From: Patescibacteria group bacterium
GTDB taxonomy: Bacteria; Patescibacteriota; Minisyncoccia; UBA6257; UBA9933
Assembly: GCA_038065035.1 (NCBI GenBank)
Contig: JBBTRV010000006.1
Coordinates: 1-58,392, forward strand
DNA: 58,392 bases
Direction: 5' to 3'
Below the pieces are notes generated by a model. It did no database searches and was not told where the DNA came from. It worked only from the letters and a program-made list of their open reading frames with translations. Below, one piece after another: positions 10,282 through 54,803 of this stretch (positions within the stretch are counted from its first letter, which is position 1; each line of letters starts with the position of its first letter). The position numbers and the translations under genes were made by a program.

Positions 10282-10283
10282 TA

Positions 10284-11396
10284 TCAACTTTTTATTGGCA
10301 TTAAAATATAAAAATAAGAAGTGTCTTCTGGTGATTTTATAATTGCCGGCTTATTTGAATTACTAAAACCAAAGAAAATATTTTCAGAAGTTATATTTTT
10401 AATTCCATCTAATAAAAAGCGCCAATTAAAAATAACTTCTATTGGCTCTCCTTTTATTTTTGCGGAGATTAAATACTTATTCACCCCAAAAACATTATTA
10501 CAAGAAGATATTTCTATGTTTTTAAGATTTTCTTTTATGGTTATTTTTATTTCATTAAGCCGGTCTGTGAAGATTCCAACAAGTTTAACGGCGTTGATTA
10601 ATTCATCTTTATTTAAAACAACTTCTGTTTCGTGTGTTTTTGGAATAATTTGCTGATATTCCGGAAATTCACCATTAATTAATCTTGATATTATTTCTGT
10701 ATTTTCGTTTTTAAAAACAATTTGGGTTTGGTCAAAAAATATATTGATTTTTCCACTTTCATTTAATTGTGTTTCTTTAATAACCTCATTAATTGTTTTT
10801 AATGGAATAATAATCTTAAAAGCGTTATCAATATTTGATTTAAAATAATTATTCAAAATAGTCTCTTCAGAAAGCCTGAATGTATCAGTTGAAACAAATT
10901 TTATTACTGAATTTTGATAATCAAATAAAACCCCACTAAGTTCAGGTTTACTATCTTTAGTTGTTGAACTAATAATATTAATAAAAATATCTTTTAATAT
11001 TGAGTTTTGTATTTCAATATAATAATTATTGTTTTTTATTTTTGGAATAATTGGAAAATCTTCTTTTTTAATTCCATTTATTTCAGCTTCATAATTATCA
11101 GTTTTTAATAATATTTTATTATTATTTATTTCAATATTAATCCTTTCATTTTGTAAATTATTAATAATTGAATTAAAAATTCCAAAAGGAATAGTTATTC
11201 CTCCGTTTTCTATTATTTTTCCAGAAATAAAACTAATTACCGCTAATTCAAGATTTGTCGCTGAAAGTTTTATTCTATTATCAAATGATTCAATTAAAAA
11301 ATTTTTTAAAATTGGTAAATCGGTATCATCTTTTGTTATTTGCTCAATAACTCTAAGCCCATCTTTTAAATTTTTTTTTAAAACAACTAATTTCAT
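10284..11396 (-). CDS. dnaN: DNA polymerase III beta sliding clamp
   Basis: 370 aa directly downstream of dnaA, with a three-domain clamp-like pattern (MKLVVLKKNLKDGL...). Confidence 0.85.
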   Translation of the reverse strand: MKLVVLKKNLKDGLRVIEQITKDDTDLPILKNFLIESFDNRIKLSATNLELAVISFISGKIIENGGITIPFGIFNSIINNLQNERINIEINNNKILLKTDNYEAEINGIKKEDFPIIPKIKNNNYYIEIQNSILKDIFINIISSTTKDSKPELSGVLFDYQNSVIKFVSTDTFRLSEETILNNYFKSNIDNAFKIIIPLKTINEVIKETQLNESGKINIFFDQTQIVFKNENTEIISRLINGEFPEYQQIIPKTHETEVVLNKDELINAVKLVGIFTDRLNEIKITIKENLKNIEISSCNNVFGVNKYLISAKIKGEPIEVIFNWRFLLDGIKNITSENIFFGFSNSNKPAIIKSPEDTSYFYILMPIKS

Positions 11397-11530
11397 AATA
11401 TTAATATATATTATTTGTTATTGTAGTAGTGGTTGTGAATATGTTTATTATTTAAAAATAAACAATAAACATATGTATTTATTTTTAAATAACCTGTGGA
11501 AATATAGTTAATTATTATAGGATATTTTTT

Positions 11531-12898
11531 TTAAGCATTTTCATTGATTATTTCTTTTATTAATATTATTTTTTGGTTTAAGTTATTATTTTTATTAATT
11601 TCATTAGCTATTTTTTCATATGAATGGATTGCTGTTGTGTGATCTCTTTTTCCTATTTTATCCCCAATATCCGGGTAAGACATCCCCAATATTTCCCTAA
11701 GTAAAAATATTGTTATTTGTCTTGGTTCAATTAATCTTTTTCTTCTTGAATGGCTTATAATATCATCTGGTATCATTTCAAAAAAATCAGCCACTGTTTT
11801 TATTAATTGACCAGGGGTTATTTTTTTATCAACCTGGTTTATTGTGTTGCTTATTATTTCTTCAATTATTTTCGGCTGAAGATTAATATTCTTCGTTTCT
11901 TTATAAAAAACAATTTTATTTAAAATTCCTTCAATTTCTCTAATATTTCTTTGCACTTTTAAAGCTATAACTTGGCAGATATTATCTGGTAAATCAGCGC
12001 GCATTTGAACCAACTTCGTTTTTATAATAGCTAAGCGAGTTTCAAAATCTGGATAAGTAATATCTGCCGCCATTCCCCCCTCAAAGCGCGAGCGTAATCT
12101 TTCATGAAGTGTTGGAATAGCCGCCGGTGGCCTGTCGGAAGATATTATTATTTGTTTACTATTTTCATGTAGGGCATTAAATGTATGGAAAAATTCCATT
12201 TCACTTGCCTCTTTTCCCCCAATAAATTGAATATCGTCAATAATTAAAACATCTATATTGCGATATTTGTTTTTCATATCTTCCATTCTTTTGTTTCGGA
12301 TTCCGGCAACTACTTCATGAACGAATTTTTCACAATGAACATATTTTACCTTAATTTTATCTTTATAATTATTTTTTATTTCATTGCCAATTGCTTGGAT
12401 AAGGTGTGTTTTTCCAAGCCCCGTTCCGCCATAAATAAAAAATGGATTATATTTAACGCCAACATTTTTTATTACAGCAAGACTAGCGGCGTAAGCCAAT
12501 TCATTTGAAGAGCCGACGATAAAAGAATTAAGGGTGTAGCGCGGATGAAGTCCGGTTTCTTGGTCTATTTTAAATTCTGGAAATGTTAATTGCCTTTCCG
12601 CGGGTTGAGATTGTTGAGAAATATTATTTTGGTTTGCGGCTATTATTTTTGGGCCAACAACTATGTATTCAATTTTTTTTATTGAATTATCGTTATTTTT
12701 AAGAATTTCAAAAATAATTTTATGATATTTATTTTCCACCCATTCTTTGGCAAAATTGTTCGATAAACCGATTATTACTTCACCGGTATCTTTTTTCTCG
12801 CAAAGTTGGCTGTTTTTTAACCAGGTAAGAAAATTTGGGCGGGAAATTTGCAGTTCTATTTCCGATAAAACTGTTTGCCAAAGCTGGTTGGTGTTCAT
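11531..12898 (-). CDS. dnaA: chromosomal replication initiator DnaA
   Basis: Walker A GGTGLGKTHL, box VII RSRF, and a C-terminal HTH (DHTTAIHSYEKI). Confidence 0.95.
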   Translation of the reverse strand: MNTNQLWQTVLSEIELQISRPNFLTWLKNSQLCEKKDTGEVIIGLSNNFAKEWVENKYHKIIFEILKNNDNSIKKIEYIVVGPKIIAANQNNISQQSQPAERQLTFPEFKIDQETGLHPRYTLNSFIVGSSNELAYAASLAVIKNVGVKYNPFFIYGGTGLGKTHLIQAIGNEIKNNYKDKIKVKYVHCEKFVHEVVAGIRNKRMEDMKNKYRNIDVLIIDDIQFIGGKEASEMEFFHTFNALHENSKQIIISSDRPPAAIPTLHERLRSRFEGGMAADITYPDFETRLAIIKTKLVQMRADLPDNICQVIALKVQRNIREIEGILNKIVFYKETKNINLQPKIIEEIISNTINQVDKKITPGQLIKTVADFFEMIPDDIISHSRRKRLIEPRQITIFLLREILGMSYPDIGDKIGKRDHTTAIHSYEKIANEINKNNNLNQKIILIKEIINENA

Positions 12899-20686: not shown

Positions 20687-22030
20687 ATGCAATTCATTGC
20701 CGATCTCCATATCCACTCCAAATATTCCCGGGCAACGAGCAAGGAAATGAATCTGGAAAGACTTGATTCCTGGGCTGACGACAAGGGCGTTTTAGTGATG
20801 GGTACCGGCGATTTTACTCATCCGCTTTGGTTTAAGGAAATAAAAGAAAAACTTGAGCCCGCGGAGCCCGGACTTTTCAAATTAAAACAGCAATTTAAGG
20901 GAAAAACTCTAAAAGGCACTTTTAGCCAGACCAGATTTTTGTTAAGCGTGGAAATTTCCGGCATTTATTCCCGAGCCGGCAAAACCCGGCGCGTCCATAA
21001 CATAGTTTTCGCGTCCAGCGTTGAAACCGCGGAAAAAATAAATAATCAGCTTGGATTAATCGGCAACTTAAAATCTGACGGCCGGCCGATTTTGGGATTG
21101 GACAGCGAAAAACTGGCGGAAATTGTTTTTAATATTGATTTAAACGCGGTAATTATTCCGGCGCATGCTTGGACACCATGGTTTTCCGTTTTTGGCTCAA
21201 TGAGCGGTTTTGATTCTATTGAAGAGTGTTTCGGAAAATACGCGAAAAACATTTTTGCCATTGAAACCGGGTTAAGCAGCGACCCGGCGATGAACTGGCG
21301 GCTCTCTAAGCTTAATAATATCGCCTTAATTTCCAATTCTGATTCGCATTCTCTGGAGCGCATCGGCCGGGAAGCCAATATTTTTGACACAGAATTATCT
21401 TACAAAGGCATTGTTGAAGCAATAAAAAACAGTTCTCCTCTTCAGCGTAATTCTGCGTCTGTTCCGCGAAGTTCTGCAATGGTAGCAACCATAGAGTTTT
21501 TTCCCGAAGAAGGAAAATATCATTATGACGGCCATCGCAATTGCGGCGTTGTTTTCGAGCCGGAAGAAACAAAAAAACATAAAAACATCTGCCCGAAGTG
21601 CGGCCGGCCGCTGACTATCGGCGTAATGAACAGGGTGGAAAAACTGGCTGACCGGCCTGAGCCAAAAACAAAAATTGAAAAATTTGAAGAGGTCTCTTTA
21701 ATCGCCGGCGATAATAATGTCCCTTATGTCAATTTAATTACTTTGGATGAAATTATCGCCGAAGCGTTTGGCGTTGGCTCAAAATCAAAAAAAGTGAAAG
21801 CCGAATACGAAAAACTAATAAAAAACTTTGACAGCGAATTAAAAATTTTAATGAAAATGAAAATTAGCGACCTCGCTGGGGTTGCTGACAGCCGCGTTGC
21901 CGAAGGCGTAAAGCGAATGAGGGAAAGAAAAATTAAAATAAGCCCCGGCTATGACGGCGAATACGGCAAAATTTCAATTTTTAATAATGAGGAAAGGGAA
22001 GAATTAAAAAATCAGACAACTCTTTTTTAG
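20687..22030 (+). CDS. endonuclease Q (PHP-domain, TIGR00375-type)
   Basis: ADLHIHSKYSRATS, GTGDFTHP, PAHAWTPW, SNSDSHS, zinc finger CPKCGRPLTIGV, and C-terminal PGYDGEYGKI match archaeal/Bacillus EndoQ block by block. Confidence 0.8.
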   Translation: MQFIADLHIHSKYSRATSKEMNLERLDSWADDKGVLVMGTGDFTHPLWFKEIKEKLEPAEPGLFKLKQQFKGKTLKGTFSQTRFLLSVEISGIYSRAGKTRRVHNIVFASSVETAEKINNQLGLIGNLKSDGRPILGLDSEKLAEIVFNIDLNAVIIPAHAWTPWFSVFGSMSGFDSIEECFGKYAKNIFAIETGLSSDPAMNWRLSKLNNIALISNSDSHSLERIGREANIFDTELSYKGIVEAIKNSSPLQRNSASVPRSSAMVATIEFFPEEGKYHYDGHRNCGVVFEPEETKKHKNICPKCGRPLTIGVMNRVEKLADRPEPKTKIEKFEEVSLIAGDNNVPYVNLITLDEIIAEAFGVGSKSKKVKAEYEKLIKNFDSELKILMKMKISDLAGVADSRVAEGVKRMRERKIKISPGYDGEYGKISIFNNEEREELKNQTTLF

Positions 22031-26983: not shown

Positions 26984-27012
26984 AAAAAACCCCCGCTTTG
27001 CGGGGGTTTTTT
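26984..27012. terminator. bidirectional rho-independent terminator
   Basis: aaaaaa cccccg ctttg cggggg tttttt between convergent genes. Confidence 0.6.
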
Positions 27013-27346
27013 ATATTCCTCTTCCTTCGTATTTTTCGAAAATCGCCCAAAAACTTAGGTTTTTCTCTCCTTTGTTATGAACTTTATGAAAATTGCCGCT
27101 TGGCACAAGTATAAGGTCGCCGGCTTTCACCTGGAAGGTCTTGTCGCCAATCTCCATTGTTCCAATACCATCAATAAAAACATAAACTTCGTCGCTGTTT
27201 TCATGGGAATGGCCGCTAGTTGATTTTTCCGGATAAAGTTCGGTTAAAGAAACGGTGAGATGTTTTAAAGAAGCAAGGTCAAAAACTTTGTAAATTTCGG
27301 TATCTCTTATAATATTAGCCAGTTTTTTATATTCTGTTATGTCCAT
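27011..27346 (-). CDS. cupin-domain protein
   Basis: GHSHENSDEVYVF...G and GDLILVPSGNFHKVHN (the two cupin motifs). Confidence 0.7.
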   Translation of the reverse strand: MDITEYKKLANIIRDTEIYKVFDLASLKHLTVSLTELYPEKSTSGHSHENSDEVYVFIDGIGTMEIGDKTFQVKAGDLILVPSGNFHKVHNKGEKNLSFWAIFEKYEGRGI

Positions 27347-27617
27347 TCGAATATTATAGCTTATATCTATTTGTTTTAGTAGGGATTTGACCCCGCATTT
27401 TTGAAAGACTTATTCGCAATCATTAAAAGGTGTGAGATTGACCAAAATTATAAAAAGATTGATAATAAAATCAGAATTAGCGCGATAATTTATTTTGAAA
27501 AATTAATAGGAAGGGGGTGGTTAATATGTTGAGAAAAGAAGGAGATGCTATTGTTGTACTTTGATTTTTGGGGTTGTTAGCTTTTATTGGATTGTTAATT
27601 TTCTTTGAAAGGGGGTA

Positions 27618-27821
27618 ATGCAAATGAATTTTGTCAAAGAAAAATACAAAGCAAAAGCGAAAAAGGTCAATGAGGAGCCGGCTGAAGCAAAAAAGGAAGT
27701 CGTGGAGAAGGGCAAGGAAATTAAGGAAAATATTGATGAGTTGATTGACAAGATTGACGACATTCTCGAAGAGAATGCCGAGGAATTTGTTAACGGGTAT
27801 GTGCAAAAAGGAGGTGAATAA
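27618..27821 (+). CDS. pup: prokaryotic ubiquitin-like protein Pup (GGE C-terminus)
   Basis: The C-terminal half IDELIDKIDDILEENAEEFVNGYVQKGGE aligns residue-for-residue with mycobacterial Pup DDLLDEIDDVLEENAEDFVRAYVQKGGQ. SD aaaggggg upstream and its own terminator. Confidence 0.85.
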   Translation: MQMNFVKEKYKAKAKKVNEEPAEAKKEVVEKGKEIKENIDELIDKIDDILEENAEEFVNGYVQKGGE

Positions 27822-27851: not shown

Positions 27852-27889
27852 AACTCCCTAATCGCTTTATTGGGTTGGGGAGTTTTTTA
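27852..27889 (+). terminator. terminator after pup
   Basis: aactccc ... gggagtt stem followed by a T-run. Confidence 0.55.
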
Positions 27890-27898
27890 TTTGGCGTG

Positions 27899-27981
27899 TG
27901 CCGAGGGCGAGATTTGAACTCGCACGTCCTTGCGGACACCAGCTTCTAAAGCTGGCGTGTCTGCCATTTCACCACCTCGGC
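27899..27981 (-). tRNA. tRNA-Leu (anticodon TAG), long variable arm
   Basis: Reverse complement is gccgaggtggtgaaatggcagacacgccagctttTAGaagctggtgtccgcaaggacgtgcgagttcaaatctcgccctcggca. Confidence 0.85.
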
Positions 27982-29650: not shown

Positions 29651-29704
29651 AGCCCGCTAAGAAGTTTTTACTTTTAAGCGGGCTGTTTTATTTTAAAAAT
29701 AAAT
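29651..29704 (+). terminator. terminator of the SPFH operon
   Basis: agcccgct ... agcgggct stem followed by gttttatttt. Confidence 0.5.
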
Positions 29705-30110
29705 TGCTAATCGCCTGCATAAAATCTTCGAAGTCGCTTAAATCATTTTTTGCGTATTCCAATATATTTTTGTCGTTGATTTCCCAATAGCGATGTATTA
29801 GTTTATTTCTGAATTTTACCATATTTCTTAATTTCAGCGATAAATCTGGTTGCAAAGCTTTTTCATTTTCCAATACTTCAAAACATTCACCAAAAGCGGA
29901 AACCGCTTTATGAAATTTTTTTGCGGCTAAATGAACGTAAACGCCGCCTACTGCCTCAATTGCTTGCAGGAGATTATATTTTAAAGCGGCTAAATCTATT
30001 TTATCTGACAAAATTTTTTCATCTCCAAAAGATATTATTTTTTTTATTTCTTCCAATGCCGCGTCAATTTCCGCGAACCTTTGTTGAATTTTTTTCTTGT
30101 CTATATTCAT
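29688..30110 (-). CDS. hepT: HepT (DUF86, HEPN) toxin
   Basis: R-x4-H motif RNKLIHRYWEI. 140 aa, downstream of a nucleotidyltransferase. Confidence 0.8.
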   Translation of the reverse strand: MNIDKKKIQQRFAEIDAALEEIKKIISFGDEKILSDKIDLAALKYNLLQAIEAVGGVYVHLAAKKFHKAVSAFGECFEVLENEKALQPDLSLKLRNMVKFRNKLIHRYWEINDKNILEYAKNDLSDFEDFMQAISNLFLK

Positions 30111-30118
30111 AATATTTT

Positions 30119-30559
30119 TTAGCGAGTAATAAGTTCCTTGAATGATTGATAAGATATATATTCATTAGCTAAAGCGTCAAGTGAAGAATATTCAATAATA
30201 GGGTCAAGAATGTTGTCATCTTTAACAAACAATAATTTGCCTCGGGAAAATACATTATTTTGAAACGATACTGGCGCGAAATTTAAAACTTTAATGTCTA
30301 TTTTATCAAACGAAAAATTTATAAATTTGCCCAATTCCACTGAAAGATTAGTCTCATAGTTGAAAACTTTTTCTTTTTCAATAGCTGGCTTAACTAAAAA
30401 AACCGCCACGTCGATATCGCGAAAAGAGATGTTTTCCGGCTCAAGAAAAGAGCCGAAAATATAGGAAAAGGAAATCTCTTCGCGTTTTTCCAGAAATTGG
30501 CGGATTTTAGTCGTTGTTTCTTCTTTTTCTTGTTTTGTCATCTGATAGAATTCTTTCAT
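30119..30559 (-). CDS. mntA: MntA minimal nucleotidyltransferase antitoxin
   Basis: IFGSFLEPE...RDIDVAVF (GS...DxD). Start is uncertain (Met codons at 30595, 30559 and 30541). Confidence 0.75.
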   Translation of the reverse strand: MKEFYQMTKQEKEETTTKIRQFLEKREEISFSYIFGSFLEPENISFRDIDVAVFLVKPAIEKEKVFNYETNLSVELGKFINFSFDKIDIKVLNFAPVSFQNNVFSRGKLLFVKDDNILDPIIEYSSLDALANEYISYQSFKELITR

Positions 30560-30730
30560 TCTGGTTATTATATTGAAAATTTGATAAAAAAGCAATTAAA
30601 AACAAAAATCCCGCAGTAGAGCTTTCGTTCACTGCGGGACTTCTCCCCGACTTCTTATTTTAAGAATGTCGGGATTTTTTATTTGGTATTTCCTATTATT
30701 AATTATATTTTATATATTATTTGGTTATAA

Positions 30731-31090
30731 TTAAAAAACACTTTTTACAATTGCCGGTATACTTAACGCGATTAAAGCCACAACGATTGCTACTATTGCA
30801 TATATTATTTGACTTTTTGCTTTTCCAACTTTTTCAGGATCACCTTGAGCTGTTAAATAGGTAAAAGCGGCCGCAAGAATAAATATGCCAGCAAGAATAA
30901 AGAATATGGTATAAATCCATTTTATAACCCCTGTTATTTTATTTAAGAGTTCAGTCATAGTGCCTACTTGTACTTCTCCTTTAAAATCAACATCGCTTGA
31001 GCCCTGTGAAATTGCTGAAACCATAACGGGCAACAATAATAATGAAACAAGATTTATAATTACAAACGTTTTTATTTTTAGTGAAGCCAT
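30731..31090 (-). CDS. T4SS-pilin-like (TrbC/VirB2-like) small membrane protein, paralog 1
   Basis: Signal peptide, then two TM helices around the loop LTAQGDPEKVGKAKSQI. Confidence 0.6.
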   Translation of the reverse strand: MASLKIKTFVIINLVSLLLLPVMVSAISQGSSDVDFKGEVQVGTMTELLNKITGVIKWIYTIFFILAGIFILAAAFTYLTAQGDPEKVGKAKSQIIYAIVAIVVALIALSIPAIVKSVF

Positions 31091-31167
31091 ATTTTATGTA
31101 TATTTTTATTAAAATATATTCGACCTTTTATTTTATTAATTTTATATTAAAAAAATAAAAATTCAAT

Positions 31168-31533
31168 TCATTCTCCACTTAGAACACTTTTTATAATAGT
31201 AGTAAAGCTGAATGCTAAAAGGGCAATTACGATAGCAATAATAGCATAGAAGATTTGTTTATTAATTTTTTGAATTGTTTCTGGATTACCTTGAGCGGTA
31301 AGATAACTATAAGCTACTATAAGTATAATTAAACCTGCTATTATAAAAAATATTGTATACATCCATTTTGCAATATTATTTAAAATTTTTAATACATCGG
31401 CAATGCTGCATATCGCCGTTTGCGAACGGTCGCAATCTGCGGCAAAAGCCAATGGCGTTGCTAAGGCAGTAAGTAGCAAGTAGAAAGCAATAAATAGAAC
31501 AAAAATATCCTTTTTATTTAAAAATTTAATCAT
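31168..31533 (-). CDS. T4SS-pilin-like small membrane protein, paralog 2
   Basis: Start moved to the internal Met MIKFLNKK (ATGA overlap with the upstream gene). Loop LTAQGNPETIQKINKQI. Confidence 0.6.
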   Translation of the reverse strand: MIKFLNKKDIFVLFIAFYLLLTALATPLAFAADCDRSQTAICSIADVLKILNNIAKWMYTIFFIIAGLIILIVAYSYLTAQGNPETIQKINKQIFYAIIAIVIALLAFSFTTIIKSVLSGE

Positions 31534-31865
31534 TTTACCAGATTTGTTCCCAACACTTCTCCAATTATATAAATAATCCCCCAAGAGCACAAGATAATGG
31601 CGTAGCCGACCGCGGCCCATTGGATGGTTTTTCTTCCGCCTTGCACTTTTTCCGGGCTGTCGCCGGCGGTTAAAATCAAAAATCCGCCGTATAATACCAT
31701 AATAACGACAATCGGCGCGCCGATAGTAATAAAATAGCCGATGATTCTTTTTAAAAGTTCAAAAATACTTGTGGGGCCGAGCGGGTTTGTAAAACCGCCG
31801 CCGATTGTTTCGCCAACGCCCGCCGCTAAAGCTTTATTTAAAATTTTTAAAAAAAGATTTTGCAT
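31530..31865 (-). CDS. T4SS-pilin-like small membrane protein, paralog 3
   Basis: NPLGPTSIFELL... and LTAGDSPEKVQGGRKTI. Confidence 0.6.
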   Translation of the reverse strand: MQNLFLKILNKALAAGVGETIGGGFTNPLGPTSIFELLKRIIGYFITIGAPIVVIMVLYGGFLILTAGDSPEKVQGGRKTIQWAAVGYAIILCSWGIIYIIGEVLGTNLVK

Positions 31866-31887
31866 TTACTGTAAAATTAAAAATAAA

Positions 31888-32301
31888 TTATTGGCAATTA
31901 ATTTTCACAGCTGGATTCCACCAATTTCCAGTTAGATTATTTCCGGCTATTACTTGCAATATTGTATCAATTAAAAGCCACGCCAGCAAGGCGATTAAAA
32001 GCCCGATGACGGCCGAAGTGATGATTTTTCTGCCGTCGCTTACTCTTTCCGGCTTGTCGCCGGCGGTTAAAATCACAAACCCGCCGTAAATAATGAAAAT
32101 TACCACCAACGGTACGGCAATGTAGTAAAGAGCAAAATCAAGCACTTTTTCAGCAAGCGTTAACAGGTCGCAGAATTCGCAACTTGCTTTGCTGGTACCT
32201 GGTCCGCAAGGAACAAGTGCGGCATAAGTGATTGAAGTAGTAAGTAGTAAGCAGAAAGTAAAAAGTATGATAATTTTTAATTTTGAATTGTAATTTTGCA
32301 T
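31888..32301 (-). CDS. T4SS-pilin-like small membrane protein, paralog 4
   Basis: Signal peptide, Cys pairs, and LTAGDKPERVSDGRKII. Confidence 0.6.
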   Translation of the reverse strand: MQNYNSKLKIIILFTFCLLLTTSITYAALVPCGPGTSKASCEFCDLLTLAEKVLDFALYYIAVPLVVIFIIYGGFVILTAGDKPERVSDGRKIITSAVIGLLIALLAWLLIDTILQVIAGNNLTGNWWNPAVKINCQ

Positions 32302-43978: not shown

Positions 43979-45205
43979 ATGTTTAAATTATTTAAAGATT
44001 ATTTTATTAATCCTCCCTTTTGCGACGACTGCGGGCCTTTGCCGGTAATTCATTGGCAGAATTATTTTAATTCCCTACTGGAAAATATTTTGCCTGATAT
44101 ATGCTTACCTAACTCTTTTAATTATTTTATTGAAAAATCATTTATTGATTTATTTTGCCTATTAAGATTAGTTAAAATTGAAGAAAATTCTAATCACTCA
44201 AAAATTTCTTCAAGAATTTCTTTGCGGACAACGGTTTTTATGTGCGAAGCGGAAAAGCGAGGGATTAAATTTTCCGCTTTAAAAGGCCCGGTTGGCTATT
44301 TAAATTATTTTTACATGGCCATTAACGGCAAAAAATATTTTTTTGAGGGCTTACCAAGGGCTGAATGGTTGAGTAAGAAATCGATTCATCGGATTGACGA
44401 TAAAATATTTATTAAAAATGAATTAAAGAAAATCAATGCGCCGATAGCCGAAGGAGAATCTTTTAATCATTTAAATTGGAGGACGGCCTTGAAATACGGC
44501 AGGCAATTGGGATTTCCATTAATGGTAAAGCCGCGCAACGGCTCGATCAGCCATCATATTACAGCTGATATAAAAAATGAAAATGAATTAGAAACGGCAA
44601 TTCGCAAAGCTTTGCGATACTCCCCCTTTTTTATTGTTGAAAAATATCTGGATAATATAAATGTTTATCGGGCAACGGTTGTTGATGAAAAACATATTGC
44701 CTGTGTTAAGCGCGTGGCGGCGCATATTATTGCCGACGGCAAGCATTCAATTGAGGAATTGATTGAAATTAAAAATAAAGACGCGCGGAGAGGGTTGCCT
44801 AGGCAAAAAAACACCACTTTATATAAATTGGTAATTGATAAAACGAGCGAATTATTATTGGCTGAGCAGGAATATGATTTTGACTCTGTGCCGAAAAAAG
44901 GAGAAATAATTTATTTTCAGGAAAAAGTGATTCTTGATTTAGGGGCGGACTTATTTGAGGTTTCATCAAAAATGCATTTTGATAACATTGAATTATTTAA
45001 AAACATCGCCTCTTTATTTAGCGTTAAATTGGCTGGCATTGATTTTATTGCGGAAGATATCGGCAAGTCATGGAAAGAACAGCAATGCGCGGTGATTGAA
45101 TTAAACAGCTTGCCGTATATTGATATGCATCATTTTCCCACTTACGGCGAACCAGTAGAAATATCCAAACATCTTTGCGATATGGTTTTGAGGTATTACT
45201 CTTGA
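43979..45205 (+). CDS. stand-alone ATP-grasp ligase resembling the N + ATP-grasp domains of cyanophycin synthetase
   Basis: GFPLMVKP..., VAAHIIADGKHSIEELIEIKNKDARRG, AGIDFIAEDI and VIELNSLPYIDMHHFP run parallel to the CphA G-domain blocks. No Mur-ligase-like M domain. Confidence 0.75.
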   Translation: MFKLFKDYFINPPFCDDCGPLPVIHWQNYFNSLLENILPDICLPNSFNYFIEKSFIDLFCLLRLVKIEENSNHSKISSRISLRTTVFMCEAEKRGIKFSALKGPVGYLNYFYMAINGKKYFFEGLPRAEWLSKKSIHRIDDKIFIKNELKKINAPIAEGESFNHLNWRTALKYGRQLGFPLMVKPRNGSISHHITADIKNENELETAIRKALRYSPFFIVEKYLDNINVYRATVVDEKHIACVKRVAAHIIADGKHSIEELIEIKNKDARRGLPRQKNTTLYKLVIDKTSELLLAEQEYDFDSVPKKGEIIYFQEKVILDLGADLFEVSSKMHFDNIELFKNIASLFSVKLAGIDFIAEDIGKSWKEQQCAVIELNSLPYIDMHHFPTYGEPVEISKHLCDMVLRYYS

Positions 45206-49451: not shown

Positions 49452-50375
49452 TTACAGATTAAGCAAGGAGTAAATTTTATTAATTAAATTATCAATAATT
49501 TCTTTTTTTGTCGATTCAATATTCAATCTTATTGCCGGCTCGGTGTTTGATGGACGTAAATTAAACCACCATTCATTAGATTCAATTGTTAATCCATCAA
49601 GGTAAAAAATTTTTAATTGGTTAGAAAATTGATTTTTAAAAATTTCTTCGATTTCTTTTAAGATATTTTTCATTTCGCGATTTTCAGCTGGCAATTCAAT
49701 ATTAATTTCTCCACTCCGATAATATTGCGGCAGTAAATCATTAAAGTTAGCTATTGAATAAGGCAGTTTTGAAATAGCGTTAATAACTTCAATTGCGGTT
49801 AAAATTCCGGAATCAATATAAGAAATTTCTTTTTTATCGCTGATTGGAAAATAATAATGGCCGGATTTTTCCGCTCCAAAATCAGCTTTAATTTCTTGCA
49901 TTAGTTTTTTAATAAAATAATGGCCGGCCCTAGAAGTCGTAAGTCTTAAGTCTTTAGTCGCTAGTCTTTTAACAAGCCAGCCAGTTCTTGAGTCAATTAC
50001 GATTTTTTTTGGCTTTAGATGCCAGATTAATAATTTACTAATAACATCGGGATCAATAAAGCGGCCAAGATTATCAATAAAAAATACCCGATCGCCGTCA
50101 GCGTCAAAAATAACTCCTAAATCAACTTTTTGTTTTTTTACTTCTTGTTGAAGTTGGTTTAAAGCGTTTGAAGCCAATGGATTCGGCCTATGAGCCGGAA
50201 AATCACCATTGGGCGTCTGATTAATTAGTTGATAGTCAATTAGTGAATTGGTTTTAAATAATTCTTTTAAAATCAATCCGGTCGTACCGTTAGAACAATC
50301 AAAAACAATTTTTAATTTTTTGTCAGAATGCAATCTTTTTTTAAGAAAGTCCACATAAATTTTTATATAATTCAT
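49452..50375 (-). CDS. phosphomannomutase/phosphoglucomutase, C-terminal fragment (domains II-IV)
   Basis: Metal loop FDADGDR, sugar loop GAEKSGHYYF, and C-terminal RPSNTEP. Separated from the domain-I fragment by stops in all three frames. Confidence 0.7.
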   Translation of the reverse strand: MNYIKIYVDFLKKRLHSDKKLKIVFDCSNGTTGLILKELFKTNSLIDYQLINQTPNGDFPAHRPNPLASNALNQLQQEVKKQKVDLGVIFDADGDRVFFIDNLGRFIDPDVISKLLIWHLKPKKIVIDSRTGWLVKRLATKDLRLTTSRAGHYFIKKLMQEIKADFGAEKSGHYYFPISDKKEISYIDSGILTAIEVINAISKLPYSIANFNDLLPQYYRSGEINIELPAENREMKNILKEIEEIFKNQFSNQLKIFYLDGLTIESNEWWFNLRPSNTEPAIRLNIESTKKEIIDNLINKIYSLLNL

Positions 50376-50403
50376 AAAATTTAAAACCAAATTAACTAAT
50401 TAA

Positions 50404-50826
50404 CTAATTTACCAACTTACTAACTTCTTCTCCACTTATTGGCATAGCATTTTTGCCGACGATTTTTAAACCATTATATTCTTTTGGGTTGTGGCTGGCC
50501 GTAATCATTATTCCTAAATCAGCATTAAAATAATTAGCTAAAAAATAAAACATCGGCGTAGTTGATAATCCTATTTTAATAATTGCTAATTGCTGATTGC
50601 TAATTGTTAATTGTTCAATTATTGCGTGATAAAGAGTAGGCGAGCTTAGCCGGGTGTCATGAGCAACTGCAATTTTTAATTTTTCATTTTTAATTTTGAA
50701 TTTTGAAATAAACAAAGAAATAATTACACAAACTATTTCTTCGTTTATTTCAGCGGGGTATTTGCCGCGGATGTCGTAAGCGCGAAAAATTTTATGATTT
50801 ATATTTATTTTATTTGTAGTTTCCAT
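50404..50826 (-). CDS. phosphomannomutase/phosphoglucomutase, N-terminal fragment (domain I)
   Basis: FRAYDIRG and the phosphoserine loop TASHNP. Ends ...GEEVSKLVN* inside a taattag-type micro-repeat. Confidence 0.75.
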   Translation of the reverse strand: METTNKININHKIFRAYDIRGKYPAEINEEIVCVIISLFISKFKIKNEKLKIAVAHDTRLSSPTLYHAIIEQLTISNQQLAIIKIGLSTTPMFYFLANYFNADLGIMITASHNPKEYNGLKIVGKNAMPISGEEVSKLVN

Positions 50827-50870
50827 TACATTGATTTTATCAGCAATTGGAGTTAAATTAAATAGATATA

Positions 50871-53003
50871 ATGTCCCGCAAAAATAAAAAAAATAAAAAA
50901 GAAGATTCGTCTCAGTTTTTTGACGATTTTCGCCTTCATCCGGAAACGAAAAAAAGCGTTTGGGCGGTAATTTTTATCGGCGTTGCCATAATTTTATTTT
51001 TGGCGAGCTTTAAAAGCGCCGGACCTTTCGGCAATTTCGCTTACGCAATTTTTGAAAAACTTTTCGGCTGGGGCTATTATCTTTTACCTTTGATTTTTTT
51101 GATAATGGCCGGCGTTTTTCTAGCTTCCGAGCGCCGCCGGATTTATGTGATTACTTTTTTAGGCGCGGTGATGTTTGTTTTAGCCGGTCTTGGTCTTATT
51201 GATATTGTTTTTCCGGAAAGTGGAGGCTTAACAGGCAAAGCAGTTGGTTTATTAGAAGTCTTTTTTGGTTATTGGGCTTCTATTATAGTTTCTTTGATTA
51301 TTTTGGCCGCATCGCTATTGATTGTTTTTAATCTTAGGATAAAAATTCCCCAAAGATTAAAAGCGTTAAAAGCAGACGAAAAAACAGAAACTTTGAAAAA
51401 GACTGAGGTTGAAAAAGTGGAAGAAGCGATTTTTGCCGCAGGCGATGAGAATGAAAATGAAGAAGTTAAAGCAGAAAAAGAAGTGGAACAGATAGCGATT
51501 AAAGATAAGATAACTCAAGTTATGGGATTAAAACAAAAAAGGAGCGCGCTTATTGGAAATTCGAACGTCAATTATGTTGCTCCACCGTTGGATTTATTGA
51601 GGTCTTCGGTTGAAAAGCCGACAGTCGGCGACTTGCGGGCAAGCGCCAATATTATTAAAAGAACATTGGAGGGCTTTGGCATTTCCGTAGAAATGGGAGA
51701 AATTAATATTGGGCCGAAAGTAACGCGCTATACCTTAAAGCCGGCTGAAGGCGTGAAGCTTTCCCGTATTACCGCTTTGAATTCTGATTTGGCTTTGGCA
51801 TTAGCGGCGCATCCGATAAGAATTGAAGCGCCGATTCCCGGGAAGTCTTTAGTCGGCATTGAAGTGCCGAATAAGGTCGCGGCTATTGTCCGGCTTGGCA
51901 GTCTGCTTAATTATCAAGATTTTTACGCTTCCGGACCATTAGGCTTTGTGCTGGGAAGAGACGTTAATGGCGACCCGATTTTTTCCGATATTGAGAAGAT
52001 GCCGCATATTTTAATTGCCGGCTCGACCGGTTCCGGCAAATCAATCTCTATTCACTCTCTCATAATTTCGCTTTTGTATAAAAATTCTCCGCAGACTTTA
52101 AGAATGATTTTAATCGACCCGAAAAGAGTGGAACTTTCGGTCTATGACGGCTTGCCTCATCTGATTTCTCCTGTTATCACCCAGCCGAAGAAAACGATTA
52201 ATGTTTTTCGTTGGCTGATTGATGAAATGGACAGGCGTTATGAAACTTTGCTTCAGGCCGGTTCGCGCGATATCCAAAGCTATAATAAAAAGAATGATAA
52301 TCCGCTTCCTTATGTTTTGGTGGTAATTGATGAATTAGCTGATTTGATGGCTAGTTACGGACGGGAAATAGAAGGCGCTATTGTGCGATTGGCGCAAATG
52401 GCGCGCGCTACCGGCATTCATTTGGTTGTTTCTACTCAAAGGCCGTCGGTGGAAGTGATTACCGGATTGATAAAAGCCAATATTACTTCAAGAATTGCTT
52501 TGCAGGTGGCTTCGCAGGTTGATTCGCGGACTATTCTTGATTGCGCCGGCGCGGAAAAGCTTCTTGGAGGAGGCGATATGCTTTTTATTTCTTCTGAATT
52601 ATCAAAGCCGAAAAGAATTCAGGGCGCTTATATTTCCGAAGAAGAAATTAATAAAGTTTCCAAGTTTATAAAGGAAAATAATAAGAATTATGTTTTAAAA
52701 GAAGGAGAAAGCGGAGAATCTATTTTTGAAAATGGCGAACAGGCGGAAGGCGGAATAAATAACGACAAGGAAGATATGTTTGATAAATATTCCAATGACG
52801 ATGATGACGAGCTTCTTGATGAAGCGGTGGAGACGGTGAAAGCGGCCCAAAAAGCTTCAGCTTCATTGTTGCAACGGAGATTAAAAGTCGGCTATGCCCG
52901 CGCCGCCAGGCTGCTTGATATTATGGAGGCTAAGGGCATAATTGGTCCAGGAGACGGAGCTAAGCCAAGGGAGGTGTATATTGATAAGATGACTAATGAC
53001 TAA
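50871..53003 (+). CDS. ftsK: DNA translocase FtsK/SpoIIIE
   Basis: N-terminal TM helices, GSTGSGKS, and a C-terminal gamma winged helix (LLQRRLKVGYARAARLLDIME). Confidence 0.9.
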   Translation: MSRKNKKNKKEDSSQFFDDFRLHPETKKSVWAVIFIGVAIILFLASFKSAGPFGNFAYAIFEKLFGWGYYLLPLIFLIMAGVFLASERRRIYVITFLGAVMFVLAGLGLIDIVFPESGGLTGKAVGLLEVFFGYWASIIVSLIILAASLLIVFNLRIKIPQRLKALKADEKTETLKKTEVEKVEEAIFAAGDENENEEVKAEKEVEQIAIKDKITQVMGLKQKRSALIGNSNVNYVAPPLDLLRSSVEKPTVGDLRASANIIKRTLEGFGISVEMGEINIGPKVTRYTLKPAEGVKLSRITALNSDLALALAAHPIRIEAPIPGKSLVGIEVPNKVAAIVRLGSLLNYQDFYASGPLGFVLGRDVNGDPIFSDIEKMPHILIAGSTGSGKSISIHSLIISLLYKNSPQTLRMILIDPKRVELSVYDGLPHLISPVITQPKKTINVFRWLIDEMDRRYETLLQAGSRDIQSYNKKNDNPLPYVLVVIDELADLMASYGREIEGAIVRLAQMARATGIHLVVSTQRPSVEVITGLIKANITSRIALQVASQVDSRTILDCAGAEKLLGGGDMLFISSELSKPKRIQGAYISEEEINKVSKFIKENNKNYVLKEGESGESIFENGEQAEGGINNDKEDMFDKYSNDDDDELLDEAVETVKAAQKASASLLQRRLKVGYARAARLLDIMEAKGIIGPGDGAKPREVYIDKMTND

Positions 53004-54671: not shown

Positions 54672-54803
54672 TTTTGTTTTTAAAATAGAGTATTATTTTC
54701 CATCCAACAAATAAAAGAGAAATACCATTTGGTGCTTTTAGATTAATTTTAAGGCAAGCCAGGTTAGAAGAAAAAGATTTTGAAAAATAAGTTGTTTACA
54801 ACT

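What the first reader, a model, noticed from the sequence alone, without database searches (positions are those of the whole stretch)
27618..27821. Orphan Pup homologue ending in GGE in a CPR-like genome
The 67-aa ORF ends IDELIDKIDDILEENAEEFVNGYVQKGGE. This is near-identical in pattern to actinobacterial Pup (DDLLDEIDDVLEENAEDFVRAYVQKGGQ). A terminal Glu means it would be ligation-competent without Dop deamidation (established for GGE-type Pups). It has a strong SD and its own terminator and appears monocistronic. Its neighbours are a cupin gene and a tRNA. No PafA/Dop-like ligase, Mpa/ARC ATPase or 20S proteasome gene is in this 58-kb window. Pupylation is characteristic of Actinobacteria and Nitrospirae, and Pup-like UBact proteins have been reported in some other lineages. 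The exact YVQKGGE ending points to Pup proper.
Basis: partly seen in the sequence, partly recalled or inferred. Interest (0 to 1): 0.7.

Follow-up and report, generated by a model that had tools for sequence, protein, structure and literature searches.

The report
Stand-alone Pup gene in Wolfebacteria
A tiny groundwater bacterium (Candidatus Wolfebacteria, CPR) carries a real, strongly conserved gene for Pup, the bacterial counterpart of ubiquitin, with none of the enzymes that attach or read the tag nearby; other CPR lineages and phages show the same lone-gene pattern, so the open question is whose machinery uses it.

Summary
The ORF is a genuine Pup (Pfam PF05639 72 bits vs cut-off 27; TIGR03687 60.6 vs 41.45). 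It ends in GGE, has a well-placed SD and a conserved intrinsic terminator, and lies between a cupin gene and tRNA-Leu. The true start is probably the second ATG (27624, 65 aa). The window is the end of a 190-kb Hainich-aquifer contig from Candidatus Wolfebacteria (RecA 88-89% to named Wolfebacteria).

No PafA/Dop, Mpa N-domain or 20S proteasome gene occurs in the window plus 6.3 kb beyond it. None occurs around Pup in about eight other CPR-type contexts (256 kb in total). The last 24 codons are under strong purifying selection (295 synonymous vs 71 non-synonymous codon differences), so the gene is functional.

"Orphan" is only shown locally. Pup is also unlinked from its machinery in about 45 Rokubacteria/NC10 loci, and I could not search whole CPR genomes. 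GGE endings are common (82/120 hits). Databases already name Pup in Azambacteria and Patescibacteria MAGs.

Unexpectedly, 29 phage contigs carry Pup, while no PafA/Dop was found anywhere in that viral collection. That makes "a parasite's Pup used by a host's ligase" a live alternative.

Verdict: a new member of a known family, of moderate interest, with one decisive check still open.

The parts
27438..27466 (+). Promoter-like site: TTGACC, 17-nt spacer, GATAAT (10 of 12 matches)
   Evidence: It is a consensus match only; the region had fewer such sites (2) than shuffles (mean 3.9), so this is weak evidence.
27511..27564 (+). SD-like AAGGGGGTG (27511-27519) and a 12-codon mini-ORF MLRKEGDAIVVL* (27526..27564). 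Past the TGA it continues in frame as a hydrophobic stretch up to the pup SD.
   Evidence: In L001 the homologous ORF is an uninterrupted 28 codons encoding a hydrophobic peptide. Its role is unknown; it may be a leader or a relic.
27610..27616 (+). Shine-Dalgarno core AGGGGGT for pup
   Evidence: it lies 7 nt before the ATG at 27624 and 1 nt before the ATG at 27618. The equivalent AGGAGGT is conserved in L001.
27624..27821 (+). pup coding sequence, 65 aa plus stop (most likely start).
   Evidence: Pfam 72.2 bits and TIGR03687 60.6 bits. The exact 65-aa product is on record in 5 contigs. SD spacing supports this start.
27747..27818 (+). Last 24 codons (DKIDDILEENAEEFVNGYVQKGGE): the partner-binding helix plus the flexible GGE tail that carries the ligatable Glu
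   Evidence: Across 8 CPR-type lineages there are 295 synonymous vs 71 non-synonymous pairwise codon differences here, against 92 vs 266 in the preceding 16 codons. The segment aligns to Pup chains in 3M91/3M9D, 7OY3 and 4BJR. AF2 models a helix that is confident only over residues ~31-55, with a low-confidence tail.
27852..27894 (+). Intrinsic terminator: hairpin AACTCCC...GGGGAGTT (27852-27884) followed by TTTTTTATTT
   Evidence: (z = -3.1; 1 of 200 shuffles folds as well). It is nearly identical in L001 although the flanks differ.
27898..27981 (-). tRNA-Leu(TAG), a convergent neighbour that bounds the unit. It is not functionally linked.

Best explanation
This is a functional, free-standing pup gene in a Candidatus Wolfebacteria chromosome, related most closely to Nitrospirota-type Pups.

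Its product is a ~65-residue protein with no fold of its own. Residues ~30-60 become helical on a partner, and the free C-terminal Gly-Gly-Glu is ready for ligation without deamidation. The most likely mechanism is canonical pupylation. [quoted passage not shown] The tag is then read by an AAA+ unfoldase with or without a proteasome, as in proteasome-less Corynebacterium.

I take the ligase to be encoded elsewhere in the same genome, unlinked to pup, as it evidently must be in free-living Rokubacteria/NC10.

Shown: family membership, the ligation-ready end, expression signals, purifying selection on the partner-binding segment, and absence of machinery within 64.7 kb. Inferred: that ligation happens at all, and where the ligase is encoded.
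For: - Family membership passes curated thresholds.
- The last 28 residues are 75% identical to M. tuberculosis Pup in solved Mpa, Dop and PafA complexes.
- A Glu terminus needs no Dop. Pup folds in the PafA/Dop groove or on the Mpa coiled coil. Pupylation without a proteasome exists (PMC8223512).
- AF2 gives a helix-only, non-globular model.
- Strong purifying selection falls exactly on the partner-binding segment in 8 CPR-type lineages, which implies that a conserved binding partner exists.
- The SD and terminator are conserved in L001.
- Unlinked pup is common in free-living phyla. Fifty-eight Rokubacteria/NC10/Nitrospiraceae loci (874 kb) lack adjacent machinery, yet one NC10 contig has an Mpa N-domain gene beside Pup. 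Dop/PafA homologues are reported in NC10 (PMC7947786).
- Only about 65 kb of this genome was visible.
Against: - No PafA/Dop, Mpa-N or PrcAB appears in 256 kb of DNA around CPR-type Pups in about 8 different contexts.
- No gene family other than Pup recurs near it across CPR lineages.
- No ligase that I could retrieve carried a CPR name. These searches were saturated or unnamed, so they are uninformative rather than negative.
- Published surveys of PafA/Dop distribution list several phyla but not CPR (PMC7947786, PMC2588565).
- CPR Pups look like at least two separate acquisitions of pup alone. The Azambacteria Pup is nearer to Nitrospirota Pups than to any other CPR Pup. That is less expected if a resident ligase were required.
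- Phages keep Pup with no ligase of their own.
Confidence: 0.45

Rival explanations
1. Trans-acting Pup. The Wolfebacteria genome has no ligase of its own. Its ligation-ready Pup is used by, or interferes with, the pupylation system of another organism, such as a Nitrospirota or actinobacterial host or partner of this presumably episymbiotic cell. The outcome would be tagging of host proteins, or competition for the host's PafA or Mpa. This is the same logic as phage-encoded Pup.
For: - Twenty-nine IMG/VR contigs carry Pup homologues that pass the Pfam cut-off at 65-78 bits.
- Four of them were checked and are clearly phage: T4-like head, tail, UvsY and late-sigma genes in L136; terminase, portal and protease in L124; portal and major head in L112; recombination genes in L116. 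Pup is packed tightly inside the phage gene blocks.
- No PafA/Dop relative exists in the whole 2.9-million-contig viral collection, even when scanned with family-invariant motifs.
- Some phage Pups end in GGQ and so need a host Dop.
- CPR Pups are nearest to Nitrospirota Pups at 56-67% identity, sometimes nearer than to other CPR Pups. Their C-terminal 24 residues are almost identical to those of Nitrospirota that have full operons.
- CPR Pup is solitary in every context seen.
Against: - No route is known for delivering a cytoplasmic protein from a Wolfebacteria cell into a host, and Pup has no signal peptide.
- The host of this lineage is unknown.
- A phage acts inside its host's cytoplasm, whereas a CPR cell does not, so the analogy is imperfect.
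- Absence of a ligase from the genome has not been shown.
Confidence: 0.25
2. Ligase-independent role. The conserved helix is kept because Pup binds a partner non-covalently, and no isopeptide bond is ever formed. It could be an adaptor, decoy or regulator of an AAA+ machine or chaperone system.
For: - Conservation is concentrated in the helix that forms on binding partners.
- In Azambacteria, pup sits directly after hrcA-grpE-dnaK-dnaJ.
- FtsH is the only AAA+ protease in the window.
Against: - The terminal GGE is invariant in all CPR-type Pups. It has no known role other than ligation.
- No Mpa-type coiled-coil/OB domain was found in 256 kb of CPR DNA.
- There is no precedent for a binding-only Pup.
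Confidence: 0.12
3. Relic. The gene is a leftover of a horizontally acquired Pup operon that lost its enzymes, and it has no present function.
For: - The nearest relatives sit in complete Nitrospirota operons.
- A decayed C-terminal Pup fragment lies about 1 kb from the intact gene in L013, L014 and L107, so Pup copies do decay in these genomes.
Against: - The amino-acid sequence of the last 24 codons is nearly frozen while synonymous sites have turned over (295 vs 71).
- The reading frame, SD and terminator are intact and conserved.
- The gene is maintained at different loci in about 8 lineages with streamlined genomes.
- No operon remnants flank it.
Confidence: 0.05
4. Artefact: a chance ORF, an antisense shadow of a real gene, an assembly chimera, or a contig mis-binned from an actinobacterium or Nitrospirota.
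For: A 109-aa antisense ORF (27477..27806) overlaps it and also recurs across lineages.
Against: - Profile E-value is 6.7e-20.
- The substitution pattern fits the + frame.
- The same gene and neighbours appear in four independent assemblies.
- Wolfebacteria housekeeping genes flank it on a 190-kb contig.
- GC is 0.38 against 0.36 for the window.
Confidence: 0.01

Closest known systems
Actinobacterial Pup of the Pup-proteasome system (M. tuberculosis Rv2111c; structures 3M9D with Mpa, 4BJR with PafA, 7OY3 with Dop)
   Same: The size, the lack of a globular fold and the C-terminal motif match (21/28 identical, YVQKGG[EQ] end). It matches the same Pfam and TIGRFAM models well above their cut-offs.
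   Different: M. tuberculosis Pup ends in Gln, needs Dop, and lies in a locus with mpa, dop, prcBA and pafA. Here the end is Glu and no such gene lies within 64.7 kb. The N-terminal half is Lys/Glu-rich and not alignable.
Nitrospirota Pup operons (called UBact by Lehmann et al. 2017), e.g. L017, L018 and L006: mpa-dop-pup-prcB-prcA-pafA
   Same: These are the nearest non-CPR relatives, 64-66% identical over the full length. L017 and L018 share the DKIDD signature and the GGE end.
   Different: Those genomes carry the complete machinery adjacent to pup. The Wolfebacteria gene stands alone in unrelated housekeeping context.
Proteasome-less pupylation in Corynebacterium glutamicum (Pup, PafA, Dop and ARC but no PrcAB; ferritin disassembly)
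   Same: It shows that Pup can work without a 20S proteasome (PMC8223512). A minimal system is therefore plausible in a reduced genome.
   Different: Corynebacterium still has the ligase, depupylase and ARC in the pup locus. None was seen here.
Unlinked Pup of Rokubacteria / Methylomirabilota (NC10)
   Same: The pup gene stands alone, with no ligase or proteasome gene within +-10 kb, in about 45 species representatives.
   Different: These are free-living, high-GC, large genomes. Pup there sits in one conserved housekeeping neighbourhood (ThrB-like, CcdA, SelD-like), whereas the CPR contexts all differ. One NC10 contig has an Mpa N-domain gene beside Pup.
Phage-encoded Pup homologues found here in IMG/VR (L111-L139)
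   Same: They are solitary pup genes in a genetic entity with no ligase of its own. They have the same conserved C-terminal 20-25 residues, and both GGE and GGQ ends occur.
   Different: They are 49% identical or less over the full length. A phage acts inside a host that has the machinery, whereas a CPR cell is a separate compartment. I found no report of phage Pup in the searchable literature and none in cultured-phage GenBank records.

Membership tests
Pup (Pfam PF05639 / NCBIfam TIGR03687) | Profile match above the curated cut-off | tested here: met
   72.2 bits vs 27 and 60.6 bits vs 41.45.
Pup (Pfam PF05639 / NCBIfam TIGR03687) | Small protein of 50-90 residues whose last residues are Gly-Gly-Glu or Gly-Gly-Gln (PMC2588565) | tested here: met
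   65 or 67 aa, ending ...YVQKGGE directly before the stop codon.
Pup (Pfam PF05639 / NCBIfam TIGR03687) | Conserved C-terminal helix motif that docks on Mpa, PafA and Dop | tested here: met
   It aligns without gaps to Pup chains of 3M91/3M9D, 7PX9, 7OY3 and 4BJR, with 21/28 identical. The motif is invariant across CPR-type Pups.
Pup (Pfam PF05639 / NCBIfam TIGR03687) | No globular fold of its own; helix forms on binding | tested here: inconclusive
   AF2 gives one long helix with pTM 0.40. pLDDT is about 90 only for residues ~31-55 and 57-69 at both ends. This is consistent with the feature, but a prediction does not measure disorder.
Pup (Pfam PF05639 / NCBIfam TIGR03687) | Covalent attachment to substrate lysines through the terminal Glu | not testable with these tools
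   This needs mass spectrometry or an in-vitro ligation assay.
[quoted passage not shown] | pup lies in a locus with the ligase pafA and the depupylase dop | tested here: not met
   No PafA/Dop was found by tblastn, Pfam or custom HMM in the window, in 6.3 kb beyond it, or in 19 other CPR loci.
[quoted passage not shown] | An Mpa/ARC unfoldase (coiled coil plus OB domains plus AAA) is present in the locus | tested here: not met
   The only AAA hits are FtsH and RuvB. An HMM of the Mpa N-terminal domain finds nothing.
[quoted passage not shown] | 20S proteasome genes prcB and prcA are present (optional in some Actinobacteria) | tested here: not met
   No hit with PrcA, PrcB or combined HMMs.
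Pupylation pathway at the whole-genome level | A PafA-family ligase is encoded somewhere in the same genome | not testable with these tools
   Only 64.7 kb of the 190-kb contig could be read. The ligase searches returned only Nitrospirota or unnamed proteins.
UBact (Pup homologues of Gram-negative and candidate phyla, Lehmann et al. 2017) | As I recall it, a Pup homologue outside Actinobacteria found together with Mpa, Dop, PafA and proteasome homologues. No separate profile exists in the libraries used. | not tested
   The paper is not held, so the definition rests on memory. By sequence this protein matches the ordinary Pup models.

The most novel reading that the evidence does not exclude
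Solo Pup is a parasite's tool. Wolfebacteria and other CPR episymbionts, like the phages found here, may have repeatedly captured only the tag gene from Nitrospirota- or Actinobacteria-type hosts. They would lack any ligase and would feed a ligation-ready Pup into the host's PafA/Mpa-proteasome pathway, or jam that pathway. The effect would be to redirect or block host protein degradation. That would be cross-organism hijacking of a bacterial ubiquitin-like system.
Probability: 0.2. Interest if true: 0.85.

Novelty: new member of a known kind. Interest (0 to 1): 0.45.

Why it matters
Pupylation is treated as a trait of Actinobacteria and Nitrospirota in which tag, ligase, depupylase and unfoldase travel together.

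A selectively maintained pup gene with no machinery nearby, in several lineages with some of the smallest bacterial genomes, has two possible meanings. One is that a minimal pupylation system exists unnoticed in CPR bacteria, which would extend regulated protein tagging to organisms thought to lack it. The other is that the tag is used with someone else's enzymes.

The second reading gains weight from a by-product of this work. Phage contigs carry Pup genes, yet no viral contig carries a ligase. If either phages or CPR cells exploit a host's pupylation system, that would be the first bacterial parallel to viral ubiquitin genes in eukaryotes.

One HMM search of already public assemblies would decide between the two main readings.

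Tried and rejected
1. Conserved unknown neighbours of Pup in the P0017/P0034 lineages (207-, ~120- and 548-aa proteins, and a 541-aa AAA protein) were tested as diverged ligase, unfoldase or proteasome. They have no significant Pfam match and no homologue in the window, so they are lineage-specific context.

2. A search for any gene family recurring near Pup found only Pup and its antisense shadow ORF across CPR lineages. The Rokubacteria neighbours are housekeeping genes.

3. The genome-collection scan with full-length CPR-type Pups was swamped by the generic ENAEEFV motif and returned only one named CPR genome. The metagenome scan restricted to DKIDDILE gave only 7 loci, all solitary.

4. 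The search for a CPR ligase did not succeed.
   - The PafA profile search of the 5.8-billion-protein set returned only Nitrospirota in the top 120.
   - The exhaustive search of representatives found 6,874 family members.
   - Names for the 20 representatives I could look up were Moduliflexus, Tectomicrobia, Actinomycetales or absent.
   These results are uninformative, not negative.

5. A mobile-element origin has no support. No phage or plasmid hallmark lies near pup in the window, and GenBank phages give no Pup hit.

6. Walking along the 190-kb source contig was possible only to 6.3 kb past the window.

7. My census of SD motifs at longest-ORF starts (2 of 54) is unreliable because those starts are not the real ones, so I discarded it.

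8. The literature searches found nothing on Pup in CPR/Patescibacteria or in phages. The UBact paper is not held.

Full report
**1. The observation**

- It matches Pfam Pup (PF05639) at 72.2 bits against a gathering cut-off of 27 (E = 6.7e-20).
- It matches NCBIfam TIGR03687 at 60.6 bits against 41.45.
- Against solved structures, its last 28-39 residues align without gaps to the Pup chains in the Mpa complex (3M91/3M9D, 7PX9), the Dop complex (7OY3/7OXY) and the PafA fusion (4BJR). Identity is 21/28 to the M. tuberculosis sequence.

The neighbours are a Cupin_2 protein (27011..27346, minus) and tRNA-Leu(TAG) (27898..27981, minus).

A hairpin at 27852-27884 followed by TTTTTTATTT is a convincing intrinsic terminator (z = -3.1; coordinates).

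The SD core AGGGGGT (27610-27616) lies 1 nt from the first ATG and 7 nt from the second. The likely start is therefore 27624 and the product is 65 aa. That is the product on record in public gene calls, and it matches the start of the closest relative P0001.

Both the SD and the terminator are conserved in the syntenic relative L001, while the surrounding intergenic DNA is not.

**2. The organism**

Pfam annotation of 30 ORFs shows ordinary chromosome near the replication origin: DnaA, DnaN, GyrA, RecA, FtsK, FtsH, RNase J, PBP1, PilB-type ATPase, a split phosphoglucomutase, and type IV pilin-like genes. GC is 0.36.

RecA is 88-89% identical to RecA of two named Candidatus Wolfebacteria genomes, and the other named hits are Wolfebacteria or the Patescibacteria group.

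The window is the terminal 58.4 kb of contig Hain_H51_01um_R2_12_length_190351 (ENA ERZ1292627). This is the 0.1 um filter fraction of Hainich aquifer well H51.

The identical Pup with the same neighbours occurs in four further assemblies from that site. Gene GC is 0.38 and GC3 is 0.46, against 0.34 +/- 0.07 for the window's genes. Mis-binning, chimerism and very recent insertion are therefore excluded.

**3. Is the machinery nearby?**

A canonical operon (L006: mpa-dop-pup-prcB-prcA-pafA) supplied probes. tblastn against the window hits only the AAA module of FtsH.

I built HMMs for PafA, Dop, PafA+Dop, PrcA, PrcB, Mpa and the Mpa N-terminal domain from 16-20 full-operon loci. Run with all filters off on every stop-to-stop ORF of 40 aa or more, they found nothing but AAA modules. 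The search covered the window and 19 other CPR loci (3,061 ORFs, 256 kb).

The 6.3 kb beyond the window's right end also lacks these genes.

**4. Relatives and their contexts**

All 175 database homologues are PF05639 proteins. Of the 120 listed, 82 end in KGGE, so the GGE end is ordinary.

A subgroup shares the window's DKIDDILEENAEEFV signature. Contexts were obtained for about eight distinct CPR-type lineages:
- the Wolfebacteria group (window, L001, L100-L103);
- the lineage NCBI names 'Pup [Patescibacteria group bacterium]' (MEK7130387.1; L002-L005) and its relative (L009-L012);
- Candidatus Azambacteria (OGD32425.1 and others; L069, L097-L099), where pup follows hrcA-grpE-dnaK-dnaJ on a 941-kb scaffold;
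- three further low-GC groundwater lineages whose CPR affiliation I infer from context only (L013-L016, L104-L106, L108).

In every one Pup stands alone. No gene family other than Pup and its antisense shadow recurs near it.

**5. Local orphanhood is not specific to CPR**

Among the 80 best GTDB loci, complete operons flank Pup in many Nitrospirota, in Actinomycetota and in one deltaproteobacterium. All of the roughly 45 Rokubacteria/Methylomirabilota loci and several Nitrospiraceae loci have no machinery within +-10 kb.

With the HMMs, 58 such loci (874 kb) give a single hit: an Mpa N-domain gene about 500 nt downstream of Pup in one Methylomirabilota contig.

In Rokubacteria the gene sits in a conserved housekeeping neighbourhood. 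Dop/PafA homologues are reported sporadically in NC10 (PMC7947786).

Because these are free-living organisms, their Pup must work with unlinked genes. The absence of machinery from 65 kb of a Wolfebacteria genome is therefore weak evidence about the whole genome.

**6. Is the gene functional?**

Across eight CPR-type lineages the last 24 codons show 295 synonymous against 71 non-synonymous pairwise codon differences. The preceding 16 codons show 92 against 266.

The constrained segment is the one that becomes helical in the PafA/Dop groove or on the Mpa coiled coil, plus the ligatable tail (PMC8223512).

AF2 gives a single helix that is confident only over residues ~31-55, with no globular fold (pTM 0.40).

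The gene is therefore expressed as protein and constrained by a binding partner of the usual kind. A relic is unlikely. Decay does happen, though: L013, L014 and L107 carry a truncated second Pup fragment.

**7. Origin**

Each CPR Pup has a Nitrospirota Pup as its nearest non-CPR neighbour, at 56-67% identity.
- For the window, L017 and L018 (66% and 64%; low-GC groundwater 'Nitrospirae' with full operons) are nearer than other CPR lineages at 58% or less.
- The Azambacteria Pup is nearer to Nitrospirota Pups than to any other CPR Pup.

The sequences are too short for a robust tree. The pattern fits at least two transfers of pup alone between Nitrospirota-like and CPR genomes.

**8. An unexpected parallel: phage Pup**

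Scanning IMG/VR returned 29 contigs with Pup homologues in several sequence groups, none with machinery within +-5 kb. They pass the Pfam cut-off at 65-78 bits.

Four were checked with PHROGs and are unambiguous phages:
- L136 is T4-like, with scaffold, major head, tail tube, UvsY, gp55-like late sigma and gp46/47-like nuclease genes.
- L124 has terminase, portal and protease genes.
- L112 has portal and major head genes.
- L116 has recombination genes.

Pup is packed between phage genes on the same strand.

Scans of the whole viral collection with Nitrospirota-specific ligase motifs, and then with family-invariant ones (NTRDEPH, HPEY[SA][TS]PE), found no PafA/Dop relative.

Some phage Pups end in GGQ and would need a host Dop. 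GenBank phages have no Pup, and I found no paper on phage Pup.

Pup genes can therefore persist in entities that rely on a host's enzymes. That keeps open the reading that CPR Pup acts with a partner organism's machinery.

**9. What could not be done**

The decisive test is whether a PafA-family gene exists anywhere in these CPR genomes, and it was out of reach.
- The PafA profile search was saturated with Nitrospirota.
- The exhaustive representative search lists 6,874 family members without taxonomy.
- The 20 names I could look up were not CPR.

These outcomes are uninformative, not negative.

**10. Known or new?**

The open literature places pupylation in Actinobacteria and Nitrospirae, with sporadic homologues in NC10, Verrucomicrobia, Planctomycetes, Armatimonadetes, Nitrospinae, Firmicutes and Proteobacteria (PMC7947786, PMC2588565). 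Nothing searchable discusses CPR.

Public annotation has called these proteins Pup since the 2016 Rifle genomes. From memory, the UBact paper lists Parcubacteria-type candidate phyla, but it is not held.

**11. Verdict**

This is a bona fide, functional, ligation-ready Pup in a Wolfebacteria genome. It is a new member of a known family in an unusual, solitary arrangement.

My probabilities for how it works:
- 0.45: canonical pupylation by an unlinked ligase in the same genome;
- 0.25: use with, or interference with, another organism's machinery;
- 0.12: a binding-only role;
- 0.05: a relic;
- 0.01: an artefact.

Interest is moderate (0.45). It would rise sharply if complete CPR genomes prove to lack PafA.

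Noticed in passing
L111-L139 (IMG/VR contigs), e.g. L136 4884-5060, L124 4878-5060, L112 4905-5102, L116 4938-5162: Twenty-nine viral contigs encode Pup homologues (Pfam 65-78 bits; both GGE and GGQ ends) inside phage gene blocks. No PafA/Dop relative was found in the whole 2.9-million-contig collection, and no cultured GenBank phage has Pup. I found no report of phage Pup in the literature.
   Followed up: partly
L020-L090 (about 45 Rokubacteria/Methylomirabilota loci); L083 10634-11056: Pup is unlinked from any ligase or proteasome gene within +-10 kb in all these free-living, high-GC genomes. It sits in a conserved ThrB-like / CcdA / thioredoxin-like / SelD-like / LysR neighbourhood. Only L083 has an Mpa N-domain gene just downstream of Pup.
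   Followed up: partly
L107 ~1700-1792 (+); same in L013 and L014: A second, truncated Pup C-terminal fragment (...DIIEKNAEEFVKNYVRKGGE*) with no usable N-terminal half lies about 1 kb downstream of the intact Pup. It looks like a decaying duplicate.
   Followed up: partly
P0024 (80 aa, 1,457-nt ENA contig): The first ~27 residues look like the N-terminus of ribosomal protein S3 ([23 protein letters not shown]...), fused to a Pup C-terminal half. It may be an assembly chimera or a real fusion.
   Followed up: no
window 27511-27611: A mini-ORF with its own well-spaced SD (MLRKEGDAIVVL*) sits just upstream of pup. An in-frame TGA interrupts what in L001 is an uninterrupted 28-codon ORF for a hydrophobic peptide. 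The same GAA(A)GGGGGT motif precedes both the mini-ORF and pup.
   Followed up: partly
window 27.9-49.4 kb vs L001 4.3-4.8 kb: There is a synteny break right after pup and the tRNA. In L001 pup is followed directly by the split phosphoglucomutase and FtsK, which in the window lie 21.5 kb further on (49452..53003). The intervening window segment holds essential genes (GyrA, FtsH, S1), so this is a rearrangement and not an island.
   Followed up: partly
window 29688-30595 (-) and 30731-32301 (-): There is a HepT-like / Polbeta (MNT) toxin-antitoxin pair, followed by four tandem T4SS_pilin (PF18895) genes 2-4 kb downstream of pup.
   Followed up: no
window 43979-45205 (+): A 408-aa ATP-grasp-type protein (weak D-Ala-D-Ala ligase C / CPSase matches) follows tRNA-Ile and tRNA-Val. 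ATP-grasp enzymes use the same acyl-phosphate chemistry as PafA, but nothing links it to pup: it is 16 kb away and absent from the other CPR Pup loci.
   Followed up: no
window 1693-3498 (-), 54780-56603 (+), 20687-22030 (+); L140 13599-15380: Several large ORFs (447-607 aa) have no significant Pfam family. None matches the PafA/Dop, Prc or Mpa HMMs.
   Followed up: partly
L004 9825-11450 (-); L002 15054-16088 (-): In the 'Patescibacteria group' lineage a 541-aa AAA protein with an unassigned ~270-aa N-terminal region lies about 5 kb from pup, beyond conserved unknown genes (207, ~120 and 548 aa). It has no Mpa-type N-domain signal and no homologue in the window other than FtsH's AAA module.
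   Followed up: partly
L097 3825-9104 and 10001-10234: In Candidatus Azambacteria, pup lies directly downstream of the hrcA-grpE-dnaK-(311 aa)-dnaJ heat-shock operon, on a 941,409-bp scaffold that may be a near-complete genome.
   Followed up: no
window 10001-12000: GC drops to 0.23 and cumulative GC skew reaches its minimum next to dnaN and dnaA (10284..12898). This is probably the replication origin.
   Followed up: no
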